Source: Picochlorum sp. SENEW3 (taxonomy: Eukaryota). Taken from it: DNA of 64,000 bases. The stretch lies in NCBI GenBank assembly GCA_034226945.1, contig CP120464.1:558001-622000 (forward strand), in the 5' to 3' direction. Below the pieces are notes generated by a model that did not search any database, was not told where the DNA came from, and saw only the letters and a list, made by a program, of their open reading frames with translations. Positions 22,980-64,000 of this stretch are shown piece by piece (position 1 is the first letter of the stretch; every line of letters starts with the position of its first letter). The translations under genes were made by a program, and so were the position numbers.

Positions 22980-25235
22980 ATGGTTAAAGCTGTAGGGTAC
23001 GTTATTGGGAATACGAGTCAACTCCTGTCTCTTCAGCCCCACTTGAAAGATCAGAACACCGCATTCTCAGGAAACGCTTGTGTTCGTGGTATATGTCACC
23101 TATTTCATGTTTCATATTATTATGAGCGCGTGGGATGGTGCATATACCGCTGAATCAACAGTACCTGAGAGCAGCAGCCTTTGGGTCGTCATTCTTCTAG
23201 AAGACTCGATTGGAACCTTCTGTGGCCGCGGTGGACCCATCTGTGGTGCTGACTCTTGTAGCGCTTTTCCGTGCACTAGAAACTGACTGATGTTATCTAT
23301 GTTTGCAGAATTGATTTGGGAACAACCTACTCCTGTGTTGGAGTGTGGCAGAATGACAGAGTGGAGATTATTCCAAATGAGCAGGGTAACAGAACTACCC
23401 CATCGTATGTTGCCTTCACCGATACCGAGCGTTTGGTAGGAGATGCTGCCAAGAATCAGGTGGCTCTCAACCCACACAACTCTGTGTTCGATGCCAAGCG
23501 TTTGATTGGACGCAAGTTTGATGAGCCAGCTGTCCAGCATGATATGAGCCACTGGCCATTCAAGGTGGTCAAGGGTGCTGGAGACAAGCCAATGATCCAG
23601 GTGACCTACAAGAACGAAGAGAAGACATTCTCTCCAGAGGAGATTTCTTCCATGGTCCTTGGAAAGATGAAGGAGGTAGCAGAGACCTACCTCGGAGGAG
23701 AGGTGCAGCAGGCTGTGGTGACTGTGCCAGCCTACTTCAACGATTCTCAGAGACAGGCAACCAAGGATGCCGGTGTGATTGCTGGACTCGAGGTGCTTCG
23801 TATTATTAACGAGCCAACAGCAGCCGCTATCGCCTATGGTTTGGACAAGAAGAGCGAGGGACACAAGGAGAGAAATGTGTTGATTTTCGATCTTGGAGGA
23901 GGAACCTTTGATGTGTCCTTGTTGACCATTGATGAGGGTATCTTTGAGGTCAAGGCCACTGCTGGAGATACACATTTGGGAGGAGAGGATTTCGATAACA
24001 GATTGGTGACTCACTTTACCAATGAGTTCAAGAGAAAGTACAAGAAGGACATCACTGGAAACCCTCGTGCTCTCAGACGTTTGAGAACAGCATGCGAGCG
24101 TGCAAAGAGAACCTTGTCTTCCTCATCTCAGGCTTCCATTGAGATTGACTCCTTGTTTGAGGGAGTTGATTTCTACTCCTCCATCACCCGTGCCCGTTTC
24201 GAGGAGCTTTGCATGGATTTGTTCCGCAAGTGCATGGACCCAGTAGAGAAATGCTTGAAGGATTCCAAGATGGACAAGGGATCTGTCCACGATGTGGTTC
24301 TTGTCGGAGGATCCACCCGTATTCCAAAGGTGCAGCAGTTGTTGAGTGACTACTTCAATGGAAAGGACTTGAACAAGAGCATCAACCCAGATGAGGCTGT
24401 TGCCTATGGAGCTGCTGTCCAGGCAGCCATCCTCACTGGTGAAACACACGAGAAGGTACAGGATCTCTTGTTGTTGGATGTGACTCCACTGTCTCTTGGT
24501 CTTGAGACTGCTGGAGGAGTGATGACCACATTGATCCAGCGTAACACCACCATTCCAGCCAAAAAGGAACAGGTCTTCTCCACATATGCTGATAACCAGC
24601 CAGGAGTGCTTATCCAGGTGTTTGAAGGAGAGCGTGCCCGTACTTCTGAGAACCACTTGCTCGGAAAGTTCGAACTCAGTGGAATCCCACCTGCACCGCG
24701 TGGTGTGCCACAGATTACCGTGACATTTGATATTGATGCCAACGGTATCTTGAACGTGTCTGCAGAGGACCGCAGCACCGGAAAGTCTTCCAGAATTACT
24801 ATTACCAATGACAAGGGAAGACTGTCCAAGGAGGAGATTGAGAGAATGGTTGCGGATGCTGAGAAGTTCAAGGCTGAGGATGAGGAAGTCCGCAAAAAGG
24901 TTGAAGCCAAGAATGGCCTCGAAAACTATGCGTACAGTGTCAAGAACACCCTCTCCGATCCAAACATGGAAGGAAAGGTACCAGCAGAGGATAAGGAAAA
25001 GTTGGAGAAGCTTGTCTCTGAGACTATTGAGTGGCTGGATGCCAACCAGCTCGCAGAGGTGGATGAGTTTGAGCACAAGAAGAAGGAGCTCGAGGAAGTG
25101 GCTTCACCAATCTTCGCCAAGATTTACCAGGCCGCTGGTGGTGCACCAGGTGCCGGAGGAATGCCAGGAGGAATGCCAACTGACATGCCAGGAGCTCCTC
25201 CAGCAGGTGGACCAACTGTTGAAGAGGTGGACTAA
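22980..25235 (+). CDS. HSP70: Cytosolic heat-shock protein 70
   Basis: [14 protein letters not shown] across intron 22997-23308; DLGGGTFD; C-terminal EEVD. Confidence 0.98.
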
Positions 25236-55961: not shown

Positions 55962-56018
55962 TGCGCCCACATTGCAGATAGTTCCTCTCCAAACACCAAC
56001 ACTATGCAAATTTTTGCC

Positions 56019-56216
56019 ACCAGGTGTGGCGACGAGAGCTGGGTTTGGTCAGACAGTGTCCTCAGGTTATTCAGCTGGACTCTTTTGGACGACAACTGCA
56101 TCCCGCATCGTCCCAGATGAATGGTGTGGAGAATTTTATGGGACATGGAAGAGGGCGCGATGTGTTCGTTGGCACTCCCAACATGAATGCCATTGTCTCT
56201 GGAGTGGCACGTCAGT
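56019..56216 (+). repeat. 198-bp displaced duplicate of renalase-like internal segment 54994-55191
   Basis: Direct repeat with offset 1025; about 6 mismatches counted by eye. Confidence 0.93.
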
Positions 56217-56715
56217 TGGGAGCCCCCATCATCCACGTGAGCACCTTCTCCACCACAGCACTCGAATCAACCGACGGCATCTCCGACGGGGCATTCAGCA
56301 TGTCCACAGCCGTCATACAAGAGAACGACGGAGGGGAAGCAGTCTCTCCCTGATGGAGAGCCAGAACTCTATCCATCCGAAGCACTGTGTCCCAGAACGG
56401 ACCTTGGTCTCCGTAAAAAGATTTGCAGTGCACTTCGGCTATCTTTTCGTAATCGGACGCAGTCGCGTCATGAATTACGTATCTCTCGACCTCGATCCGA
56501 TCCTGTATGCGCGTAGAAGCCTTTGTCACCCTGTTGGTCGCACGACAACCTATTCTCCAAGGTGCGAGAGCACTTCGACATCGCCTGTGGCCACGACATC
56601 CTGGTGGCGTGTGTGGGCCAACGAGCAAACTATTATGTGGATGAGCGAATATCGGATGATATTGATGCGCACGTGAGGGCTGCAGAGAGTACCCACCGCC
56701 TATGTGAACCCACAT
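56212..56715 (-). pseudogene. 3'-truncated GNAT-like acetyltransferase
   Basis: IHDATASDYEKIAEVHCKSFY...LRMDRVLAL resembles the N-half of plastid GNATs. The stop falls at the duplicate junction and no acetyl-CoA-binding motif follows. Confidence 0.5.
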
Positions 56716-56777
56716 TTTTTTAGTTTCTACACTCGTACTTTCAAATTGAATTGAATTCAATTCAATTCAATCATACT

Positions 56778-57917
56778 TTATACATTAACATTTTGTATAA
56801 GTTTAAGTTTAGCCAGATGCCTTCTGCGAACATAAACTGATGCTGCCAATCCGAGAATCCCGACGAGTGAGAAGAAGATCAAGGTTTTGGGCTCTTCCCC
56901 ATCGGTCTCGTCTTTGTTCTCGCCTTCTCCTTCAGCAAGGTTGGTGTGTGTCATTCCCAGTAATCTGAAAATGAATTTCTGGACGGTCCCCAAGGAATCA
57001 AGACCTGTTGGCACGGAGGGGTCATCTGAATGCTTTTTATTCCACTCCTGATCTCGTGTGCCAAAGAACTCCAACTGCACAGGCGATATTGCCAGATCAA
57101 ACTCTTCTTTGGGGGCACGGTCCCCGCCCTCAAAACTGTTGGATGCTCGCAACGACTTGTCTGGGCTCACACCATAGCCAGAAAGAGTGGGTCTGCTGCC
57201 ATGGCTTGTTCTCCTAGACATGCTCTGCATCGGTGACAACACAGGGCCTTGCGTCGGAACCCTATGTGGTAACTGCTGTTGAAAGTCCCTGGATAGGTTG
57301 TCGGCTCGTTCATCCTTATTTCCTACCCTCTCCTGCTCGTGGCTCTTTGCTGCAATCTCTTTCTCCAAGAAGAGGCGCTCTCTGGGATCCAATGGCAGGA
57401 ATGTCTGCCTCCGGAGCCAAAGCTGTACTTCTGAGGGATCTTTCAGGGTATCTAGAAGTATTTCAGTAGTGTACATGTGCACCAGTGTCAGATACTGCTC
57501 TCGAGTCCATCCGCTCTGTCGCGAAGCCTTCGACTTGAGCAGCAGGAGGACAAGAGAGTCAGCATGTCGTCGCTCTTCCGTTTCCAACGCGAGTGATATC
57601 CAAAGCAGGACCGCATTGGGCGGGGCTAAATCTAAAGATACAAACAAGGAGCAGAGGCGAGACCTTGCTGAGGCAAAGTTCGAGGTTTCGTAGCACGACT
57701 GCAGAAACACAACTGCTGCTCTCTCCACGAGTTCATCTCTGATTTCCAATGTTTCCTCCGATACTTCCAATTTTCTCAAAGAAGAGAGAATGTTTGACGA
57801 TATAGATTCGGATTCTGCGTACTTTCCAAGGATCAAACACCTCTCCGACTCTTCGACGAGGCCGCTCAGCTGAGAACTGAGGTCGTGCATTCCTTCCTTT
57901 AGGCTTAGAGAAGCCAC
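56778..57917 (-). CDS. APEM9/PEX26-like tail-anchored peroxisomal protein
   Basis: ESERCLILGKY, AAVVFLQS, YLTLVHMYTTEIL; C-terminal TM followed by basic RRRH. Confidence 0.6.
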   Translation of the reverse strand: MASLSLKEGMHDLSSQLSGLVEESERCLILGKYAESESISSNILSSLRKLEVSEETLEIRDELVERAAVVFLQSCYETSNFASARSRLCSLFVSLDLAPPNAVLLWISLALETEERRHADSLVLLLLKSKASRQSGWTREQYLTLVHMYTTEILLDTLKDPSEVQLWLRRQTFLPLDPRERLFLEKEIAAKSHEQERVGNKDERADNLSRDFQQQLPHRVPTQGPVLSPMQSMSRRTSHGSRPTLSGYGVSPDKSLRASNSFEGGDRAPKEEFDLAISPVQLEFFGTRDQEWNKKHSDDPSVPTGLDSLGTVQKFIFRLLGMTHTNLAEGEGENKDETDGEEPKTLIFFSLVGILGLAASVYVRRRHLAKLKLIQNVNV

Positions 57918-57958
57918 ATTGTGTTCTAGATTTTTACAGCAGATTATTCATTTTGATG

Positions 57959-59140
57959 CTACGCCCGCTGACCTCCATCACGCTGTCTACAGGATTCAAG
58001 GGCCTTCTCCAAAGCCACCATGCCTTGTCCAAGCAGATGGTGAGACAGGGCTCTCTTGGAGACAAGGATTCCCTCGTCCATCAGATCTTGTGCATGTATC
58101 CACACCGCGTCCCATGTGATGTCTTTCGAGTTTTTTGTGAGATTTCCGTATGGTCTCAAAAATATGATCCGACCTGGTGGGTACATGGGCATGGTGTCCA
58201 CATCTTTCTGATGCAGTTGGGCCCTCGCAAGATACTGCTGGAGCACCTCCCTGACATCCGGATCAATGCTTTCAAACGGCTTGAAAACATGGGGTGCGGC
58301 GGAAGCATTCACATATCTTCCGACGAGCGTATCCAAGAGGATGGACAGCTTGGGACGATAGCATGTGCCTAGGGCAAACATCATATCGTCAATCACCCGC
58401 TTCATGGTCTGCATCGACATTCGTGATATTACATCCTGACCAACCACAATCGACGTGCAAAAGCTTTCAGATATGGCACGAAATGTGTCATTCACAAGCC
58501 CACCTGGTGGATTGTACGAAAGACACCGCAAAGATGGAAAAATTTCGATTAGTTCAGCCCCAATGATACTCGAAACTGCCGCACCTAGGGAGTGCCCTGT
58601 GATCACCAGACCATACTGCTGGCCATGTATTGCATGTTGAATGAGAGCAATTGCCCTGGATGTACTGAATTCCATCTGCTCTTCCTCTTCCATCGCATCA
58701 AACTCCTTGATTTGAGGTTCGTTATAGGAAGACTCTGGAGATAACAGATCTGCATCTGCTGATATTGGCCCAGAAAGATGCTGGATTGCCTCGTAAATGC
58801 CAACCTTCTTTAAATCCTCTAGCAGGGCTCTGGCAGATGACACGATGCCTTCGTGCGCGTACATTTCTTCTGAATCTCGACCAGTCAGAGTTCTTATTTG
58901 ATCTAAGCTCCAAGGGGACACCTGGCGATTGAAATTCTTGGGACTGCTCAGAAGGTCTGTGACCAAATCAGAAAACCCAACGGTGCCCCTGATACTTATG
59001 CAAATGTTTTGCGTCACCTTGTCTACCAAAATCAGATACGGCAAGATCCCCAAAGGACTAGAGGCATAAGAGATGGGAAAATAGGCCACGAAGTTGATGG
59101 GGTCTGACCCTATTGTTGATCTGTACGCCATTTCCATCAA
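57959..59140 (-). CDS. Class-3 lipase (DAG-lipase-like), apparently missing its N-terminal part
   Basis: LPYLILVD...SIRGT...DLVTDL, AHEGI, TGHSLGAA, VVGQDVISR, MYPPGRI, SHHL. In-frame stop just upstream of 59140. Confidence 0.8.
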   Translation of the reverse strand: MMEMAYRSTIGSDPINFVAYFPISYASSPLGILPYLILVDKVTQNICISIRGTVGFSDLVTDLLSSPKNFNRQVSPWSLDQIRTLTGRDSEEMYAHEGIVSSARALLEDLKKVGIYEAIQHLSGPISADADLLSPESSYNEPQIKEFDAMEEEEQMEFSTSRAIALIQHAIHGQQYGLVITGHSLGAAVSSIIGAELIEIFPSLRCLSYNPPGGLVNDTFRAISESFCTSIVVGQDVISRMSMQTMKRVIDDMMFALGTCYRPKLSILLDTLVGRYVNASAAPHVFKPFESIDPDVREVLQQYLARAQLHQKDVDTMPMYPPGRIIFLRPYGNLTKNSKDITWDAVWIHAQDLMDEGILVSKRALSHHLLGQGMVALEKALESCRQRDGGQRA

Positions 59141-60111
59141 TGTCCGCCATATTCAGTTTGATGTAAGTATTCTTAATGATATATATGCTCATTTAAATCA
59201 TATTTGAGTGACCTTGGCCTCATGGAAAAGGCCTCCTATTGTCGAGATACCGGGATGAAAATGTGATCTTTCACACTGCCAGGCCAAAACATCACTTGCC
59301 GTCGCATGGAAACATGTCGACCCTCTCATTGAAGTCTTATATTCATTTGTAGAGGTTTGTCAGCATTTTCTACAAGTTTGAGTGGTCTTCTTGGTTTGAC
59401 TTCCTCATCCAACACTCAATCAAGGCATCCCATCAAAGACATACTTTGATAGGACCCTTAAAGTTGGTACCCTATTTGCCAAAAAAAAATTCCACCCTAC
59501 CCTACCCTAGTGATGACATCCGACTCGTGCCGTGAGGCCTCATGGCGATGCATGGAGTTGATATGCTGTGACAATTCCTGTCAGACCCATATTTTTTTTG
59601 TGAGAATTATCTCGTCCCAAACTGACGTCTGTCAACGGCATCTCGCGAAGAAACAAAGCTGCGCTGTGGTAGGCTACTACAGCAGCGACAGTATAGACTC
59701 GGACGACGACTGGCGTGGTCGTGCGTTTCCGACCCTTGGTGTCGTCGCCTCGTATTATCAAAGTAGTAGAGTTTATATACGAATTACAGTTCCATAAAAG
59801 GACCGCCGGTGCTGTTGTTGCTGGGCGTGCGGTTGGTTGTTGAGTTGAATACCAGTTGTTGTTGTTGTTAGTTTTTTGCACGGGCGTTGACCCAGCAGCT
59901 CTGATCAACGCCCGTGGAGGCCGCGCACTGATCAGCCGAGCCTGTTCGGACGGTTACAGAGACAACTATTGCACACACAAGGTACGAATCCCATACAGAC
60001 ATGAAGGACCACGTTTGATAGCAGGGGAGTTACGATCAGTTTCCTTGTGTAGGTGACAAAAGAACCGTGGCGCGTGTGTGAGGAGGAAGATATAAAGATA
60101 CGGTAGTACCG

Positions 60112-63100
60112 ATGGAAAAAGGGTTCGTTAATCAAGGTCCTATCGTCGCAACATCGACGCCTGGAGGGGAGGCTCCCCACATGGAGTGTGATGACCCAAC
60201 AGGGTCCAGACCTAAAGGAGACCACAGGAAAGAGGCAAAATTCAGGACTGAAAAGTTAGGTCTGTATAGAAAAACACGGGGAAAACAGAGTAAATACGCG
60301 CAAGAAGTGAGGAAGGTGATAAAACCTGGATCTCTGGGCGGGTATCAAGATCACAACCGAAAGAACAAGGGACAGTGGAAGGGTATTGCTCGCACATCCA
60401 GAATCAAAGAGCTTCTGTATGACACGGCCACGATGGTGGGCCACATATCCGTCGAAGCCACCCAAGCTGCTCATTACCACGTGTACCGATGCCTCGAGGA
60501 AGGTATTGATCTGGGGAAGATGGATTACAACAACTTTTGGAACTACATCTTTGATGCCATCAAAGACCTCAGGTATGGGGACGGCCTCAAACAGGACATC
60601 AGGACACCCCTGTACGACTCGCTCCGACAGTATGCAGAAGAGGCTCTACTACCTCAGGCAGGCGAGTCTCTGAGATGGGACGTCGACGGTCACACGGCCT
60701 GGCGTCGGCGTTGCCTCCTCGCTGCGGCGGATGCAAAGGCTCAGAATTTGCACATTATTCTGCACCACAATGCGTATCACAACCTTTGCAAGATTGTCAA
60801 GGTTCGGCTTGCACGCACCTTTGGGGCACGGTATGCGGATGACTTTCGTTCTTTGGTGTCTGCCGTTGCCGTCGCTGTGTGGGAGGACGTGGAGTTCCGT
60901 GATGTAAAGGAAGGGTACGACAGATTGAAGAATCTAACCGAGGAAGAGATCCAAGACATCCAGGAGGCGATCGTCACCCCTATTCGGGAGAAATTCCCGG
61001 ATCAGGAAGGCCGAAAGGAAAATGCCAAGATGATAGAATTCGTGCACTTCGTTGCGGGCGAGGTGATGGAATACAACCGCCATCGTTCTGAGCAGTCCGG
61101 CCCGGGGAGCCCACGGCAGGCCATCGAGTTAGTGAATGTGTGTGTGGGAGAAAAACTGGCGGTGGCCATCGAGCGAGATTTGAGGAAAGGATCGCTCACC
61201 AAGAAGGCGTTTGTGCACCACATGAAACATGCGCTGGACATATTCCGACAGTGTTCTGGTCCAGACGTGTTTACCACCCGCACAGACCAGGGACTCCGGG
61301 ATGGGGACAACGGACAACGTGTCGTGGACCGAAACGACAGGTATCGGGGGCAAATTTTGTGCCTTCTGTCGGAGAGGATTCTGTACCAGAGTCAGAAGGG
61401 TGGTGCCGAATTCCTGAGCCAAGACCAAGTGGGTTGGATCGATGGCATCTCGTCTGAACTGCGCCTCCCTTCGTCCTTGGCCGACTACGGCATGACCAAG
61501 AATGATTTTGCCGACTATATGGAGAGGGTCATTCTGCCCAAGCTCCGCTCGTCGTTCTTGTTCGTTGCTCCGAGGAGAAGCAAAGATGCAGAGGCCCCAT
61601 GGGGAAAGCGAATCCAGGTGCCGTCCGTCCTCCCCCTGGCAAAGAAGAGGGCCTGTCATATCAGCATTCCGACTGCGGCTATCACCGGCCTCGCAGAGAG
61701 CCTGGCGCGGGAGAGTAGTGACATTGCTAAAGCGATACACGGCCCCCGGGAGACACTGCGCGAGGCACGGCAAAGGGTGACATCAGTCGAGTCGAGAATC
61801 GTGGGCATGGACAAAGAAAACTGGTTGACCGACGAGCAACAGAAGGTTAAACAGGAACTTGAAGATAATAAGAAAAAAAGCAAGCTCGAATTTGAGCAGA
61901 CCCCGACTGGAAAGCGGCACCAGTACAAGAAGTCTGACGAGGAAAAGAAGCTGTGCAAGGAATTGACAGACAGGAAGAACGCGTTATTGAATGGCAGCCA
62001 AGAGTACGTGGATGCTCGAGAAGAAGTGACAAAAGCCGAGTTGCGGTATCAAGAGTGTTGTTGGACGGCCCTGTTCAATATCAAAGTCAGCAGGTGCCAA
62101 GACGGACACCAGTGGCTGTTTGGAGGGCAGCTGTCCACGGACGGTGTCGACGTGTCGATGCAATATTATCGTCTGAAGACGGACGACGAAATTCGAGCCG
62201 ACGAGGAGGAAAAGGAAAGGATAAAGGCCAGGGCGGCGGAGAAGGCGACAGAGTCTTCGACAGCAAAGCCGAGGAAGCGAAAACGAACGAGTAGGGCGGG
62301 GCCAGGCACCCCGCAATCCTCGAATGTCTCCAGTCGAGGGAACCTGGACAGAGCAAAAGACCTGCTGGCCGCATCGCCCGACAACGCATGGGTCTTCGAT
62401 CCAGGGCCCGATGGCCACGTGGGCATCAAGCTGGAGCAGGGCAAGATGAGGGAGCTCTGCCAGGAGAACAAGCGACACGGGGACTACGACCCGTTCGAGA
62501 CGATGAGCCTGACCAACCACGAGATGCAATCGCGTGCGGGCATCCTCAAGCGAAAGGCGCTGGAACGGGCGTGGTCGCAGGCCAGGCCAGGCATCGGGGC
62601 ATGGAAACAGGAGGCACCCACCAGAAAGGTCGGAACAGCAAGGGATATGTTGGCGTTCTGCAGAACGACCAATAGCCACCTGAACACGGTGTATGGATTT
62701 TATTCCCAGAACTGTTTCCGGAGGCAAAGGTTCTCTGTGTACACGAGGACGCAACGAATGCTGGACTCCATGGTTGAACGGATCTGCGGGACGAAGGACA
62801 GGGAGGCTCAGAGCAAGACCGTCGTTGTGTTTGGGGACGCCTCGATCAACTCGGGGAAACACGGAAAACAGAGGATCTGCTTTCGGGCCCTCAAGGACCT
62901 GCTGCGGCAGAGGTGCTGTTTCATCGAGATTGGCGAGTTCCGAAGTAGCCAGTACTGCTGTGCCTGCCATGCCAAACTGGAGGACCCCCCCGCGGTGGGG
63001 CTTCACAAGCGCTGGAAAGTACGCCGTTGTATGAACAATGGATGTGAGCGTGCTTTCTGGCAACGAGACGTGAATGCAGCCATCAATCTCGCCAAGTTTT

Positions 63101-63186
63101 TCCTGTGGGAACTCAACGGCGAGGAGAAACCAACAGTCTTCCAAAGGCCTCGGACACGAGCAGAGGAGGACATCCCCGACGTGTGA
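60112..63186 (+). CDS. Fanzor1-like RNA-guided endonuclease (eukaryotic TnpB/Cas12 relative)
   Basis: RuvC-I WVFDPG (D763); bridge-helix-like FYSQNCFRRQRFSVYTRTQR; VVVFGDA; RuvC-II IGEFRSSQ (E942) directly before CCACH; CMNNGC; RuvC-III WQRDVNAAINL (D986); FGGQLSTDGVDVS; NLS-like KPRKRKR. Confidence 0.9.
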   Translation: MEKGFVNQGPIVATSTPGGEAPHMECDDPTGSRPKGDHRKEAKFRTEKLGLYRKTRGKQSKYAQEVRKVIKPGSLGGYQDHNRKNKGQWKGIARTSRIKELLYDTATMVGHISVEATQAAHYHVYRCLEEGIDLGKMDYNNFWNYIFDAIKDLRYGDGLKQDIRTPLYDSLRQYAEEALLPQAGESLRWDVDGHTAWRRRCLLAAADAKAQNLHIILHHNAYHNLCKIVKVRLARTFGARYADDFRSLVSAVAVAVWEDVEFRDVKEGYDRLKNLTEEEIQDIQEAIVTPIREKFPDQEGRKENAKMIEFVHFVAGEVMEYNRHRSEQSGPGSPRQAIELVNVCVGEKLAVAIERDLRKGSLTKKAFVHHMKHALDIFRQCSGPDVFTTRTDQGLRDGDNGQRVVDRNDRYRGQILCLLSERILYQSQKGGAEFLSQDQVGWIDGISSELRLPSSLADYGMTKNDFADYMERVILPKLRSSFLFVAPRRSKDAEAPWGKRIQVPSVLPLAKKRACHISIPTAAITGLAESLARESSDIAKAIHGPRETLREARQRVTSVESRIVGMDKENWLTDEQQKVKQELEDNKKKSKLEFEQTPTGKRHQYKKSDEEKKLCKELTDRKNALLNGSQEYVDAREEVTKAELRYQECCWTALFNIKVSRCQDGHQWLFGGQLSTDGVDVSMQYYRLKTDDEIRADEEEKERIKARAAEKATESSTAKPRKRKRTSRAGPGTPQSSNVSSRGNLDRAKDLLAASPDNAWVFDPGPDGHVGIKLEQGKMRELCQENKRHGDYDPFETMSLTNHEMQSRAGILKRKALERAWSQARPGIGAWKQEAPTRKVGTARDMLAFCRTTNSHLNTVYGFYSQNCFRRQRFSVYTRTQRMLDSMVERICGTKDREAQSKTVVVFGDASINSGKHGKQRICFRALKDLLRQRCCFIEIGEFRSSQYCCACHAKLEDPPAVGLHKRWKVRRCMNNGCERAFWQRDVNAAINLAKFFLWELNGEEKPTVFQRPRTRAEEDIPDV

Positions 63187-63262
63187 TACAACGGAAAACA
63201 CTACAGTCACATAGCTACATGCATATGATGTACAATATAAATACTATTATTACATTATATTT

Positions 63263-63398
63263 TCAATTTGACGTTGCTCTTGTGAGTCCCACTGACTGAT
63301 ATCGGAAGGACCATCAGGCAATCAATATCAATTTGTTATTGCTCCTGTGAGTCCCACTGACTGATATCGGAAGGACCATCTGGCATTCAATATCATTT
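63263..63398. repeat. 65-bp tandem repeat (2 copies plus the start of a third)
   Basis: 63263-63327 vs 63328-63392, 6 mismatches; identical 35-nt core TGTGAGTCCCACTGACTGATATCGGAAGGACCATC. Confidence 0.95.
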
Positions 63399-63811
63399 AT
63401 AGTTATATTTCTCATCCATTGGTATCGCATTGGAGTCGTGATCTGTCGTAGGGACTGATTTTGGAATCCCTCGACCCTAGGCAATCACAGCAAGGTACGG
63501 CATTGGGTTCTTTGATGGTGTGTATGGGTGCTATTTTAATAGTAATGAGAATAGATGGGAGCATTCTGCGATATGAGTGCTGCGTCAGGGTCAACCTCGA
63601 GTTCAGATCAATGACTGCAGCCACGATACGCCTTGTCGGCTCATGGGGGTATGGACATGGTTTTATATGGGATTTATAGTAAATGTATGGGGCGGATAGG
63701 GGCGCATTGTGTGTGATCGGTGCAATGAGCCGTCTTTGGGTTTGAATGTGATCTGTTCCGTTTTGTGCGCAGGCAGCTGTATTGTGCATTTAAATTTGGT
63801 TTATTAGATAT

Positions 63812-64000
63812 ATGAGTGATTTACATCCTCTTCAAGGGGAGGATGGTGGCGCAGTGAAGGTAGAGCCAGAGGTTGGTAGTGTAGTACAGGCAGAGCCTGA
63901 GGGTGCCCCCATGGATATTCCTGTAGAGCAAGAGGCTGTGCCTCTGTCGATTCGAACGAGTCGGCGGAGAAAGAGTCGACGGGATGATGAGATTGTGGGG
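63812..64000 (+). CDS. 5' end of an unidentified ORF running off the window
   Basis: ATG 63812, 63 open codons MSDLHPLQGEDGG...SIRTSRRRKSRRDDEIVG, including an NLS-like basic patch. Confidence 0.45.
   Translation, partial: MSDLHPLQGEDGGAVKVEPEVGSVVQAEPEGAPMDIPVEQEAVPLSIRTSRRRKSRRDDEIVG

What the first reader, a model, noticed from the sequence alone, without database searches (positions are those of the whole stretch)
60112..63186. Intact, unusually large Fanzor1-type RNA-guided nuclease in a compact green-algal genome
Seen: a 1024-aa intronless ORF with a split RuvC in TnpB/Fanzor order: DPG (D763), E942 just before a CxxC, a second Cys pair, then RDxNAA.N (D986). It also has the F.G.l.TDGv.vS and FY....FRr.RF..Y...QR blocks and a KPRKRKR NLS-like patch. 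Established: this layout, with the RuvC-II glutamate next to the zinc finger, characterises Fanzor proteins, the eukaryotic omegaRNA-guided DNA endonucleases carried by transposons and large viruses. Inference: all three catalytic residues are intact and the frame is unbroken, so this is probably an active or recently active programmable nuclease. I cannot tell whether this particular protein has been described.
Basis: partly seen in the sequence, partly recalled or inferred. Interest (0 to 1): 0.92.

Follow-up and report, generated by a model that had tools for sequence, protein, structure and literature searches.

The report
Intact large Fanzor1 nuclease gene
This is an unbroken gene for a Fanzor1-type protein, the eukaryotic relative of the bacterial RNA-guided DNA cutters, sitting among ordinary genes of a compact algal-type genome; it is a new, larger-than-usual member of a known family, not a new kind of system.

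Summary

It is a Fanzor1.
- A 13-sequence family profile hits the solved Fanzor1 proteins SpuFz1 (E 1e-16), GtFz1 (1.6e-16) and PpFz1 (1.1e-5).
- An AlphaFold2 model (pLDDT 78.3, pTM 0.75) has Fanzor1 chains as its 7 best PDB matches: Z 14.6-17.0, against TnpB 10.1 and Fanzor2 9.2.
- D763, E942 and D986 fall in the columns of SpuFz1's magnesium-binding D383, E541 and D606.

The large size belongs to a well-supported clade of 948-1024 aa proteins. Its nearest named members come from Picochlorum.

The gene is a composition outlier (GC3 z = 5.1). In related strains it appears in several versions with different downstream sequence, and one contig looks spliced.

No inverted repeats, transposase or proven guide RNA were found. 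The 3' end folds better than shuffles on the sense strand only. Nuclease activity is untested.

Verdict: a new member of a known kind, of moderate interest.

The parts
60112..63186 (+). Fanzor1 ORF, 1024 aa (P0001)
   Evidence: Open frame. Family profile hits solved Fanzor1 at E 1e-16. Fold matches Fanzor1 at Z 14.6-17.0.
60112..60297 (+). N-terminal disordered, basic region (residues 1-62); possible nuclear-localisation region
   Evidence: pLDDT below 50. Not conserved with the 989-aa relative, whose alignment starts at residue 49. The NLS role is inferred from Jiang 2023 (passages) and was not tested.
62137..62145 (+). TDG motif of the WED domain (T676-D677-G678)
   Evidence: Invariant in the 13-row alignment A1. 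In the 80-row A2, G678 is invariant and T676 at least 90% conserved. Named a Fanzor1 hallmark by Yoon 2023 (passages).
62266..62286 (+). KPRKRKR basic patch (residues 719-725), lying mostly in a disordered loop
   Evidence: Sequence. The loop at residues 720-739 has pLDDT below 50. The patch is only loosely conserved in the clade.
62398..62406 (+). RuvC-I motif DPG (D763)
   Evidence: D763 is invariant in 80 rows. It aligns with SpuFz1 D383, from my count in the alignment using residue numbers.
62833..62835 (+). G908 in VVVFGD, the presumed position of the lost canonical RuvC-II glutamate
   Evidence: Conserved in at least 90% of 80 rows. Assigning it to the canonical position is an inference from Jiang 2023 (glutamate replaced by G or P). 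It was not aligned to a canonical TnpB here.
62935..62937 (+). E942, the alternative RuvC-II glutamate
   Evidence: Conserved in at least 90% of rows. Aligns with SpuFz1 E541.
62956..63045 (+). CCCC zinc finger (C949, C952, C973, C978)
   Evidence: All four are conserved in at least 90% of rows. Pfam PF07282 scores E 8.1e-5 and 23.1 bits, below the 26.3 cut-off; 7 of 12 relatives pass the cut-off.
63064..63087 (+). RuvC-III motif RDVNAAIN (D986 at 63067-63069)
   Evidence: Conserved in at least 90% of rows. D986 aligns with SpuFz1 D606.
59982..60052 (+). Probable 71-nt GT..AG intron in the 5' leader
   Evidence: One contig of run X17 skips exactly this stretch (table 5). The run's RNA nature is the tool's guess.
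63120..63262 (+). Candidate guide-RNA (omegaRNA) scaffold: end of the ORF plus 76 nt downstream, three predicted stem-loops
   Evidence: Fold z = -2.91 (2 of 200 shuffles as good). The opposite strand gives -0.69 and two ORF-internal controls give +0.45 and +1.33. No Rfam match. There is no covariation or small-RNA evidence, so this is inference only.
59506..59509 (.). Candidate left boundary of the repeated or inserted unit
   Evidence: Contig loose ends in opposite directions in two runs: X10 'before' 59506 and X15 'behind' 59509 (table 7). Weak.
63233..63259 (.). Candidate right boundary of the repeated or inserted unit
   Evidence: Contigs of X10 and X17 leave the window sequence at 63233, 63247 and 63259 with different continuations. 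An X18 contig joins from other sequence at 63256 (table 7). Weak.

Best explanation
The ORF encodes an intact member of the Fanzor1 family, the eukaryotic TnpB/Cas12 relatives that use a guide RNA (omegaRNA) to cut double-stranded DNA.

Shown here:
- Homology to Fanzor1 and a Fanzor1-type fold.
- An intact D763/E942/D986 triad at the positions of SpuFz1's metal-binding residues.
- An intact CCCC zinc finger and the TDG motif.
- Membership of a distinct clade of roughly 950-1020 aa proteins. Their extra length is made of helical insertions in the recognition (REC) half.

Inferred:
- The protein binds an RNA made from the 3' end of its own gene and the roughly 70 nt behind it. It uses the adjoining sequence as guide, recognises a short motif beside the target and cuts with the RuvC site. 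This is how SpuFz1, GtFz1 and KnFNuc work.
- The gene forms a roughly 3.75-kb single-gene unit (about 59507-63259) that was inserted between two host genes and exists in several copies in related strains. The nuclease would serve to keep or spread that unit.
For: Sequence:
- The family profile A1 hits SpuFz1 at 1e-16, GtFz1 at 1.6e-16 and PpFz1 at 1.1e-5. All other PDB sequences score E >= 0.0044 (14 sequences at E <= 1).
- 621 library proteins match at E <= 1e-3.
- 7 of 12 first relatives pass Pfam's cut-off for the Cas12f1-like TNB domain.

Structure:
- The AF2 model has pLDDT 78.3 and pTM 0.75.
- The 7 best Foldseek hits, of 8 at E <= 1e-3, are Fanzor1 chains.
- VIA-align gives Z 14.6-17.0, 505-546 residues aligned and rmsd 3.9-4.5 for Fanzor1. 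The next best are Cas12p at 11.2, TnpB at 10.1 and Fanzor2 at 9.2.

Catalysis: in the alignment, fusion-chain residues 777, 935 and 1000 are SpuFz1 D383, E541 and D606 (offset 394; residues named in Saito 2023). They fall in the profile columns of D763, E942 and D986. These three and the four cysteines are conserved in at least 90% of 80 relatives.

Long-term constraint: the protein is 57% identical and colinear with a 989-aa relative over residues 49-1024. The large clade has SH-aLRT support of 100.

Mobility and foreignness:
- GC3 is 0.657 against 0.485 +/- 0.034 for 19 other ORFs of the window (z = 5.1).
- Within single runs of related strains, contigs leave the sequence at 63145-63259 with different continuations. 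Two versions cover 61842-62088 in X15.

Expression hints:
- A GT..AG joint lies in the leader in X17, and four contigs of an oligo-dT RNA run (X18) lie on the ORF.
- A relative in the Picochlorum cluster is on record as an MMETSP transcript.

Guide RNA hint: sense-strand-specific folding at 63120-63262.
Against: - No terminal inverted repeats link the flanks: best score 18 against a shuffle mean of 20.2.
- No transposase lies nearby. The neighbours are a class-3 lipase, an FAD/NAD-binding protein and two ORFs without a family.
- There is no second copy in the window, and no whole genome is held, so the copy number in this genome is unknown.
- All read evidence comes from assembled contigs. The tool warns that summed depth is not copy number and that an RNA library may hold DNA.
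- The guide-RNA candidate rests on one sequence with a modest z-score. It has no covariation support and no Rfam match.
- The query alone falls below Pfam's cut-off and finds nothing in the PDB by phmmer.
- The model's coordinates could not be read, so convergence of the three residues was not measured directly.
- An intact green-algal Fanzor1 (CrFNuc-1) failed to cleave in vitro (Jiang 2023).
Confidence: 0.75

Rival explanations
1. Domesticated or stranded Fanzor1. The gene is a fixed single-copy host gene, no longer part of a transposon, kept for some other nucleic-acid function or simply not yet decayed.
For: - No inverted repeats and no transposase were found.
- The locus is tightly packed between host genes.
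- The Picochlorum sp. BPE23 entries in the 90% cluster number only two.
- Saito 2023 note that GtFz1, NlovFz2 and MmeFz2 loci seem to lack IRs and a transposase, and may have another function.
Against: - The strong GC3 outlier (z = 5.1) is not what a long-resident host gene would show.
- Several versions with different downstream sequence occur within single runs.
- In run X17 the contig carrying the neighbouring lipase gene stops matching the window at 59075 and continues for about 2150 letters that do not lie on it (table 8). This hints that the gene is not at this site in that strain.
Confidence: 0.15
2. An intact-looking but inactive nuclease. The frame and triad are preserved, but the protein no longer cleaves because a partner RNA is lost, a motif-reading part has changed, or the decay is too recent to be visible.
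For: - CrFNuc-1 of Chlamydomonas formed an RNP but gave no cleavage (Jiang 2023).
- No guide RNA could be shown here.
Against: - Conservation is colinear over the full length at only 57% identity to the nearest full-length relative.
- All catalytic and zinc-binding residues are conserved across the clade. This indicates selection on the protein.
Confidence: 0.2
3. A remnant of a giant-virus (Nucleocytoviricota) insertion, not a cellular transposon.
For: - The nearest ESM Atlas clusters (scores 0.94-0.98) are mostly labelled Nucleocytoviricota. This is a lead only.
- The gene is a composition outlier.
- Fanzor1 genes are reported in giant viruses (Saito 2023).
Against: - Only this one gene is an outlier, and both neighbours are ordinary cellular genes.
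- No relative was found in IMG/VR viral contigs or in phage records.
- The nearest named relatives are algal nuclear genes.
Confidence: 0.08

Closest known systems
SpuFz1 (Spizellomyces punctatus Fanzor1; PDB 8GKH, 9CEU-9CEZ)
   Same: - Same fold: Z 15.5-16.1, 522-546 residues aligned.
- Same DPx / alternative-E / D triad in aligned columns.
- CCCC zinc finger.
- A single-ORF locus, with a short stretch after the stop codon as the likely guide-RNA site.
   Different: - 1024 aa against 638 aa. The roughly 400 extra residues are mostly helical insertions at about 296-500 and 533-654.
- Only 11-15% identity in the structural alignments.
- SpuFz1 has 30-nt inverted repeats and 42 loci in its genome. 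No repeats were found here.
PpFz1 (Parasitella parasitica) and GtFz1 (Guillardia theta), solved Fanzor1 structures (9CF0, 9CER)
   Same: - PpFz1 gives the best structural Z (17.0, 531 aligned); GtFz1 gives Z 14.6.
- The profile hits GtFz1 at E 1.6e-16.
- GtFz1 loci also lack inverted repeats and a transposase (Saito 2023).
   Different: - Sequence identity is 16-17%.
- Both are shorter.
- Their guide RNAs and target motifs are known; here they are unknown.
Green-algal Fanzor1s in print: KnFNuc (Klebsormidium nitens), CrFNuc (Chlamydomonas reinhardtii), and the Fanzor element of Auxenochlorella
   Same: - Fanzor1 genes in green-lineage nuclear genomes.
- KnFNuc is intronless, present in 5 copies and cuts DNA.
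- CrFNuc has a non-coding RNA from its 3' UTR (Jiang 2023).
- In Auxenochlorella, an uncharacterised Fanzor element is the most abundant repeat of a streamlined genome.
   Different: - I could not align these proteins because no sequences were held, so their relation to this clade is untested.
- CrFNuc rides Helitron2 elements. No Helitron or other transposon features were identified here.
Picochlorum hypothetical proteins (KAI8105828.1 and KAI8106444.1 of Picochlorum sp. BPE23; P. renovo fragment; MMETSP transcript; 989-aa metagenomic P0173)
   Same: - Same clade (SH-aLRT 100).
- 57% identity over the full length, same architecture and same motifs.
   Different: - They are annotated only as hypothetical. 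The BPE23 gene models are truncated (759 and 740 aa).
- At 57% identity they are diverged paralogues or orthologues from another species, not the same gene.
Fanzor2 and IS607-type TnpB with the alternative glutamate
   Same: They share the DPG motif, the alternative glutamate and the zinc finger (Yoon 2023).
   Different: - The fold match is much weaker: Fanzor2 Z 9.2, TnpB Z 10.1.
- No serine-recombinase TnpA was found in the neighbouring ORFs.
- This protein has the Fanzor1 TDG motif and large REC insertions.

Membership tests
Fanzor1 | Homology to Fanzor1 stronger than to other TnpB or Cas12 groups | tested here: met
   Profile against PDB: three Fanzor1 proteins at E 1e-16 to 1e-5, and all others at E >= 0.0044.
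Fanzor1 | Fanzor1-type overall fold (WED, enlarged REC, RuvC, NUC) | tested here: met
   The top 7 PDB matches are all Fanzor1: Z 14.6-17.0, 505-546 residues aligned over model residues 63-1013. The best non-Fanzor1 match is Z 11.2. The model has pLDDT 78.3.
Fanzor1 | RuvC-I DPG motif and alternative RuvC-II glutamate next to the zinc finger (Jiang 2023; Yoon 2023) | tested here: met
   D763 is invariant, and P764, G765 and E942 are conserved in at least 90% of 80 rows. E942 aligns with SpuFz1 E541. That G908 occupies the lost canonical position is inferred only.
Fanzor1 | RuvC-III aspartate and CCCC zinc finger | tested here: met
   R985, D986, N988, A989, N992 and C949/C952/C973/C978 are conserved in at least 90% of rows. 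D986 aligns with SpuFz1 D606.
Fanzor1 | TDG motif in the WED domain (Yoon 2023) | tested here: met
   T676-D677-G678 is invariant in the 13-row alignment A1. In the 80-row A2, G678 is invariant and T676 is at least 90% conserved.
Fanzor1 | The three catalytic residues converge on one metal site | not testable with these tools
   The model's coordinates are not readable here. The only support is alignment to SpuFz1's Mg-binding residues.
Fanzor1 | Eukaryotic (or eukaryotic-virus) genomic context | tested here: met
   The window's other ORFs encode eukaryotic housekeeping families: HSP70, eIF3c, ALG6/8, NOC3p, XPG, PUF/NOP9.
Fanzor1 | Cognate omegaRNA encoded at or behind the 3' end of the ORF | tested here: inconclusive
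   Sense-strand fold z = -2.91 against -0.69 (antisense) and +0.45/+1.33 (ORF controls). There is no Rfam family match, no related loci for covariation and no small-RNA data.
Fanzor1 | Carried by a eukaryotic transposon (ends, target duplication, several copies) | tested here: inconclusive
   No inverted repeats and no second copy in the window. Contigs of related strains do show several versions and coincident break points at about 59506-59509 and 63233-63259.
Fanzor1 | RNA-guided, motif-dependent double-strand DNA cleavage | not testable with these tools
   Needs a bench assay.
Fanzor2 / IS607 TnpB | Compact TnpB-like protein next to an IS607 serine-recombinase TnpA | tested here: not met
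   The protein is 1024 aa. The neighbouring ORFs are a lipase, an FAD/NAD-binding protein and two ORFs with no family, and none is a recombinase. The fold match to Fanzor2 is only Z 9.2.
Cas12 (CRISPR type V) | Adjacent CRISPR array | tested here: not met
   The only repeat near the gene is a two-copy 65-nt tandem at 63263-63392. The context is eukaryotic.

The most novel reading that the evidence does not exclude
The roughly 950-1020 aa clade may be a separate, undescribed branch of Fanzor1. It comprises this gene, the Picochlorum proteins and five metagenomic relatives. The clade would have grown its recognition lobe by about 400 helical residues, towards Cas12 size. It would live in streamlined picoalgal genomes as a single-gene unit without inverted repeats, possibly acquired from giant viruses. 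Such a unit would move or persist by a route not yet described for Fanzor elements.
Probability: 0.2. Interest if true: 0.6.

Novelty: new member of a known kind. Interest (0 to 1): 0.35.

Why it matters
Fanzors are the only known eukaryotic RNA-guided DNA endonucleases and are being developed as genome editors. An intact, nuclear-adapted Fanzor1 from a fast-growing picoalgal lineage could matter in three ways.
- It could be a native editing tool for such algae.
- It samples a large-REC branch with no structure or biochemistry, which bears on how small TnpB-like nucleases grow towards Cas12-like size.
- It adds a case of a Fanzor locus without recognisable transposon ends, which bears on the open question of what Fanzors do for their hosts or elements.

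None of this overturns current understanding.

Tried and rejected
- phmmer of the single protein against the PDB gave only noise: E 0.16 and 0.92 to unrelated proteins.
- Pfam on the query alone gave a sub-threshold TNB hit and a spurious REP_ORF2 hit at E 0.066.
- No whole genome is held for the window, so genome copy number could not be counted.
- Searches for related loci that would allow covariation and end-definition failed.
  - JGI metagenome contigs with the protein: 31 pattern matches, 0 confirmed.
  - JGI metagenome contigs with alignment A3: 67 matches, 1 weak locus, L001, covering residues 724-776 only.
  - IMG/VR viral contigs with A3: 75 matches, 0 confirmed.
  - IMG/VR viral contigs with P0006: 6 matches, 0 confirmed.
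  - Alignment A1 was too diverse for pattern search.
  - Prokaryote genome contigs: 75 matches, 0 confirmed.
  - Phage records by tblastn: no match.
- Rfam scan of 59000-64000 at E <= 1: no match.
- Inverted or direct repeats between the flanks, and between 56100-56350 and the downstream flank, scored no better than shuffles.
- The antisense ORFs over the gene (408 aa and 214 aa) and two flank ORFs have no Pfam family at E <= 0.1. I take them as by-products of the G+C-rich frame.
- Earlier notes of this scan held nothing on this protein or genome.
- 'Picochlorum' and the two BPE23 accessions do not occur in the held supplements of Saito 2023 or Jiang 2023. For Saito, 9 files were searched and one picture-only PDF was not.
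- In one search, summed contig depth over 62675-63208 was several times that of the flanks in X10, X15 and X17. The tool warns that this is not a copy number, so I use only the existence of distinct contigs and loose ends.
- In one search, the oligo-dT RNA run X18 has no contigs on parts of the ORF. That is no evidence of absence.
Full report
**Observation**

Window 60112-63186 (+) is a single ATG-started frame of 1024 codons.

In an alignment of 80 relatives, D763 and G678 are invariant. The following are conserved in at least 90% of rows: T676, P764, G765, G908, E942, S946, C949, C952, C973, C978, R985, D986, N988, A989 and N992.

The basic patch KPRKRKR is at residues 719-725 by my count. 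It lies mostly in a loop of low model confidence (residues 720-739). The first 62 residues are also predicted disordered.

The antisense ORFs over the gene have no Pfam family.

**What it is**

The query alone is a hard case. Pfam gives only a sub-threshold Cas12f1-like TNB hit (E 8.1e-5; 23.1 bits against a cut-off of 26.3). phmmer against PDB sequences finds nothing real.

Relatives settle the matter.
- The word-indexed search found 12 proteins at E <= 1e-3 among 6435 candidates. Seven of those 12 pass Pfam's cut-off for the TNB domain.
- The exhaustive search found 621 proteins at E <= 1e-3, 109 at E <= 1e-10 and 12 at E <= 1e-30.
- A profile of the first 13 sequences hits the solved Fanzor1 proteins SpuFz1 (E 1e-16), GtFz1 (1.6e-16) and PpFz1 (1.1e-5). 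TranC, TnpB, Cas12f and Cas12m follow only at E >= 0.0044.

An AlphaFold2 model built on the 80-row alignment has mean pLDDT 78.3 and pTM 0.75.
- Foldseek against the PDB returns 8 matches at E <= 1e-3. The first 7 are Fanzor1 chains.
- VIA-align re-scoring of 966 chains puts the same 7 entries on top: Z 14.6-17.0, 505-546 residues aligned, rmsd 3.9-4.5, spanning model residues 63-1013.
- Clearly below them are Cas12p (Z 11.2), ISDra2 TnpB (Z 10.1) and mimivirus Fanzor2 (Z 9.2).

**Catalytic site**

Saito et al. 2023 (PMC10432273; I read passages) state that SpuFz1 is 638 aa and binds two magnesium ions through D383, N385, E541 and D606.

I counted residues along the HMMER alignment. The MBP fusion adds 394 residues, so these sites are fusion residues 777, 935 and 1000. 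They fall in the profile columns that hold D763, E942 and D986 of the window protein.

Jiang et al. 2023 (PMC10530073; passages) report two things about Fanzors. The canonical RuvC-II glutamate is replaced by glycine or proline, and an alternative glutamate about 45 residues downstream takes over. Yoon et al. 2023 (PMC10711439; passages) make DPG plus this alternative glutamate the signature of Fanzors and a narrow TnpB clade. They also name a TDG motif in the WED domain and kinked REC2 helices as Fanzor1 hallmarks.

The window protein has all of these:
- DPG;
- a nearly invariant G908 in VVVFGD, 34 residues before E942;
- TDG at residues 676-678;
- long paired helices at 536-654.

I could not read the model's coordinates. 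Convergence of the triad is therefore inferred from the alignment and was not measured.

**Size and relatives**

The protein's extra length is not an artefact. Six other proteins align over the whole length, including the N-terminal half: five of 948-1003 aa (P0002, P0003, P0014, P0015, P0016) and the truncated Picochlorum sp. BPE23 model P0004.

The 90%-identity cluster of P0004 holds:
- two hypothetical proteins of Picochlorum sp. BPE23;
- a P. renovo fragment;
- an MMETSP transcript;
- a full-length 989-aa metagenomic protein, P0173.

P0173 is 57% identical to the window protein, colinear over residues 49-1024. The exact window protein is not in the 15-billion-protein collection.

I built a quick IQ-TREE tree of the C-terminal 368 residues. 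It used 79 of the 80 rows of A2 plus P0173 and P0170. One A2 row had fewer than 200 residues in that part and was dropped; I take it to be the truncated P0004. The tree puts the eight large or large-derived rows in one group with SH-aLRT 100. Next to them sit three proteins of 808-851 aa.

Compared with the 700-780 aa relatives, the extra residues lie mainly at about 325-500 and 533-640. These stretches are helical, and the first has only moderate confidence.

Of the 150 best library hits, 7 are 900 aa or longer. The size is therefore unusual but not unique.

**Surroundings**

The window is a dense run of uninterrupted ORFs for eukaryotic housekeeping proteins.

Directly upstream, on the other strand, are a class-3 lipase gene (57959-59140) and an ORF without a family (56778-57917). 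Downstream, a gene starts within about 160-600 nt and runs off the window. A GT..AG joint at about 63494-63771 in a related strain's contig looks like its leader intron.

Features looked for and not found:
- No transposase is nearby.
- No second copy is in the window.
- No inverted or direct repeats link the flanks beyond what shuffles give.

The Fanzor ORF is a clear composition outlier. Its GC3 is 0.657 against 0.485 +/- 0.034 for 19 other long ORFs (z = 5.1). Its codon-usage distance of 1.28 is second only to the HSP70 gene.

**Evidence from public runs (contigs only)**

Twenty of the 24 listed runs, from 11 studies, hold part of 59400-64000. I laid four of them on 56000-64000 at 85% or greater likeness.

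Three isolate-type runs (X10, X15, X17) cover the ORF with contigs mostly 95-99% alike. Within single runs, contigs leave the window sequence just after the stop codon, at 63145, 63171, 63233, 63247 and 63259. Their continuations differ from one another. X15 holds two versions of 61842-62088, with 3 and 14 differences. I read this as several copies or alleles with different downstream contexts.

Break points in opposite directions coincide on both sides. On the left they are at 59506 (X10, 'before') and 59509 (X15, 'behind'). On the right they are at 63256 (X18, 'before') and 63233-63259 (X10 and X17, 'behind'). Together they would bound a unit of about 3.75 kb.

In X17 the contig that carries the lipase gene stops matching at 59075 and goes on for about 2150 unmatched letters.

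These are hints, not proof. The tool warns that summed depth is not copy number and that contigs cannot show ends.

Transcription hints:
- One X17 contig skips 59982-60052 with GT..AG ends, which would be a leader intron.
- Four contigs of an oligo-dT RNA run (X18) lie on 60363-60976, 62699-62856 and 63073-63238.
- The tool notes that DNA can be present in RNA libraries.

**Guide RNA**

In characterised Fanzor1 loci, the omegaRNA lies at the 3' end of the ORF or just behind it and reads into the flank (Saito 2023; Yoon 2023, which describes a three-stem shape without a pseudoknot).

Here, 63120-63262 on the sense strand folds into three stem-loops with z = -2.91; 2 of 200 shuffles fold as well. 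The antisense strand gives -0.69, and two same-length controls inside the ORF give +0.45 and +1.33. The longer stretch 63000-63270 gives z = -3.12. Rfam has no match.

No related loci could be fetched, so covariation could not be tested. The guide RNA remains a prediction.

**Comparison with what is known, and novelty**

Fanzor1 genes in the green lineage are in print.
- KnFNuc of Klebsormidium cuts DNA.
- CrFNuc of Chlamydomonas rides Helitron2 and did not cleave in vitro (Jiang 2023).
- An Auxenochlorella preprint (PMC12633428; passages) reports an uncharacterised Fanzor element as the most abundant repeat of a streamlined genome. It also cites Fanzors in C. reinhardtii and Chloropicon.

A full-text search for 'Fanzor' together with 'Picochlorum' found 4 papers, of which 2 were listed. 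I read passages of one; it does not report a Picochlorum Fanzor. I saw the other only in the listing. 'Picochlorum' and the BPE23 accessions are absent from the held supplements of Saito 2023 and Jiang 2023 (one picture-only PDF was not searchable). The Picochlorum relatives are annotated only as hypothetical proteins.

The gene is therefore a new member of a known family, on a branch with no biochemistry or structure. The ESM Atlas lists mostly giant-virus-labelled clusters as its nearest neighbours. That is a lead on origin which I could not confirm.

**Verdict**

- The Fanzor1 assignment is well supported.
- Activity, guide RNA and mobility are plausible but unproven.
- Interest is moderate (0.35). 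The most novel reading that remains open is a distinct large-REC Fanzor1 branch that lacks inverted repeats and lives in picoalgae.

Noticed in passing
window 63263-63392: Two tandem copies of a 65-nt unit (91% alike) begin right after the candidate right boundary of the Fanzor unit, in the short gap before the next gene. The core 35-mer occurs nowhere else in the window. The region varies between strains: an 8-nt deletion at 63374 in X15, and loose ends at 63256 and 63318 in X18.
   Followed up: partly
window 56215-56216 and 63345: Contigs of X10, X15 and X18 start matching the window only at 56215, inside an ORF. One X17 contig joins 56019-56216 to 63345-63495 through 888 other letters. That contig skips the 7.1 kb holding two host-type genes and the Fanzor gene. 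This could be a structural difference between strains, a paralogous locus or an assembly chimera.
   Followed up: no
window 59495-59509: A short (CCCTA)x3 run, preceded by a poly-A run, ends exactly at the candidate left boundary.
   Followed up: no
window 63494-63771 and 63813-64000: A GT..AG joint in an X17 contig suggests a 278-nt leader intron of the downstream gene. That gene's ORF starts near 63813 and runs off the window.
   Followed up: no
window 23316-25235: The HSP70 ORF is the strongest codon-usage outlier of the window (distance 1.69, GC3 0.552). This is as expected for a highly expressed gene, and it is a reminder that a composition outlier need not be foreign.
   Followed up: no
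P0001 against the ESM Atlas: The nearest Atlas clusters (scores 0.94-0.98) carry PF07282 and/or PF26935 (DUF8286) and are mostly labelled Nucleocytoviricota. One cluster is mostly Chlorophyta.
   Followed up: partly
window 61984-63210 (-): A 408-aa antisense ORF overlaps the G+C-rich 3' half of the Fanzor gene. It has no Pfam family and is probably a by-product of composition.
   Followed up: yes
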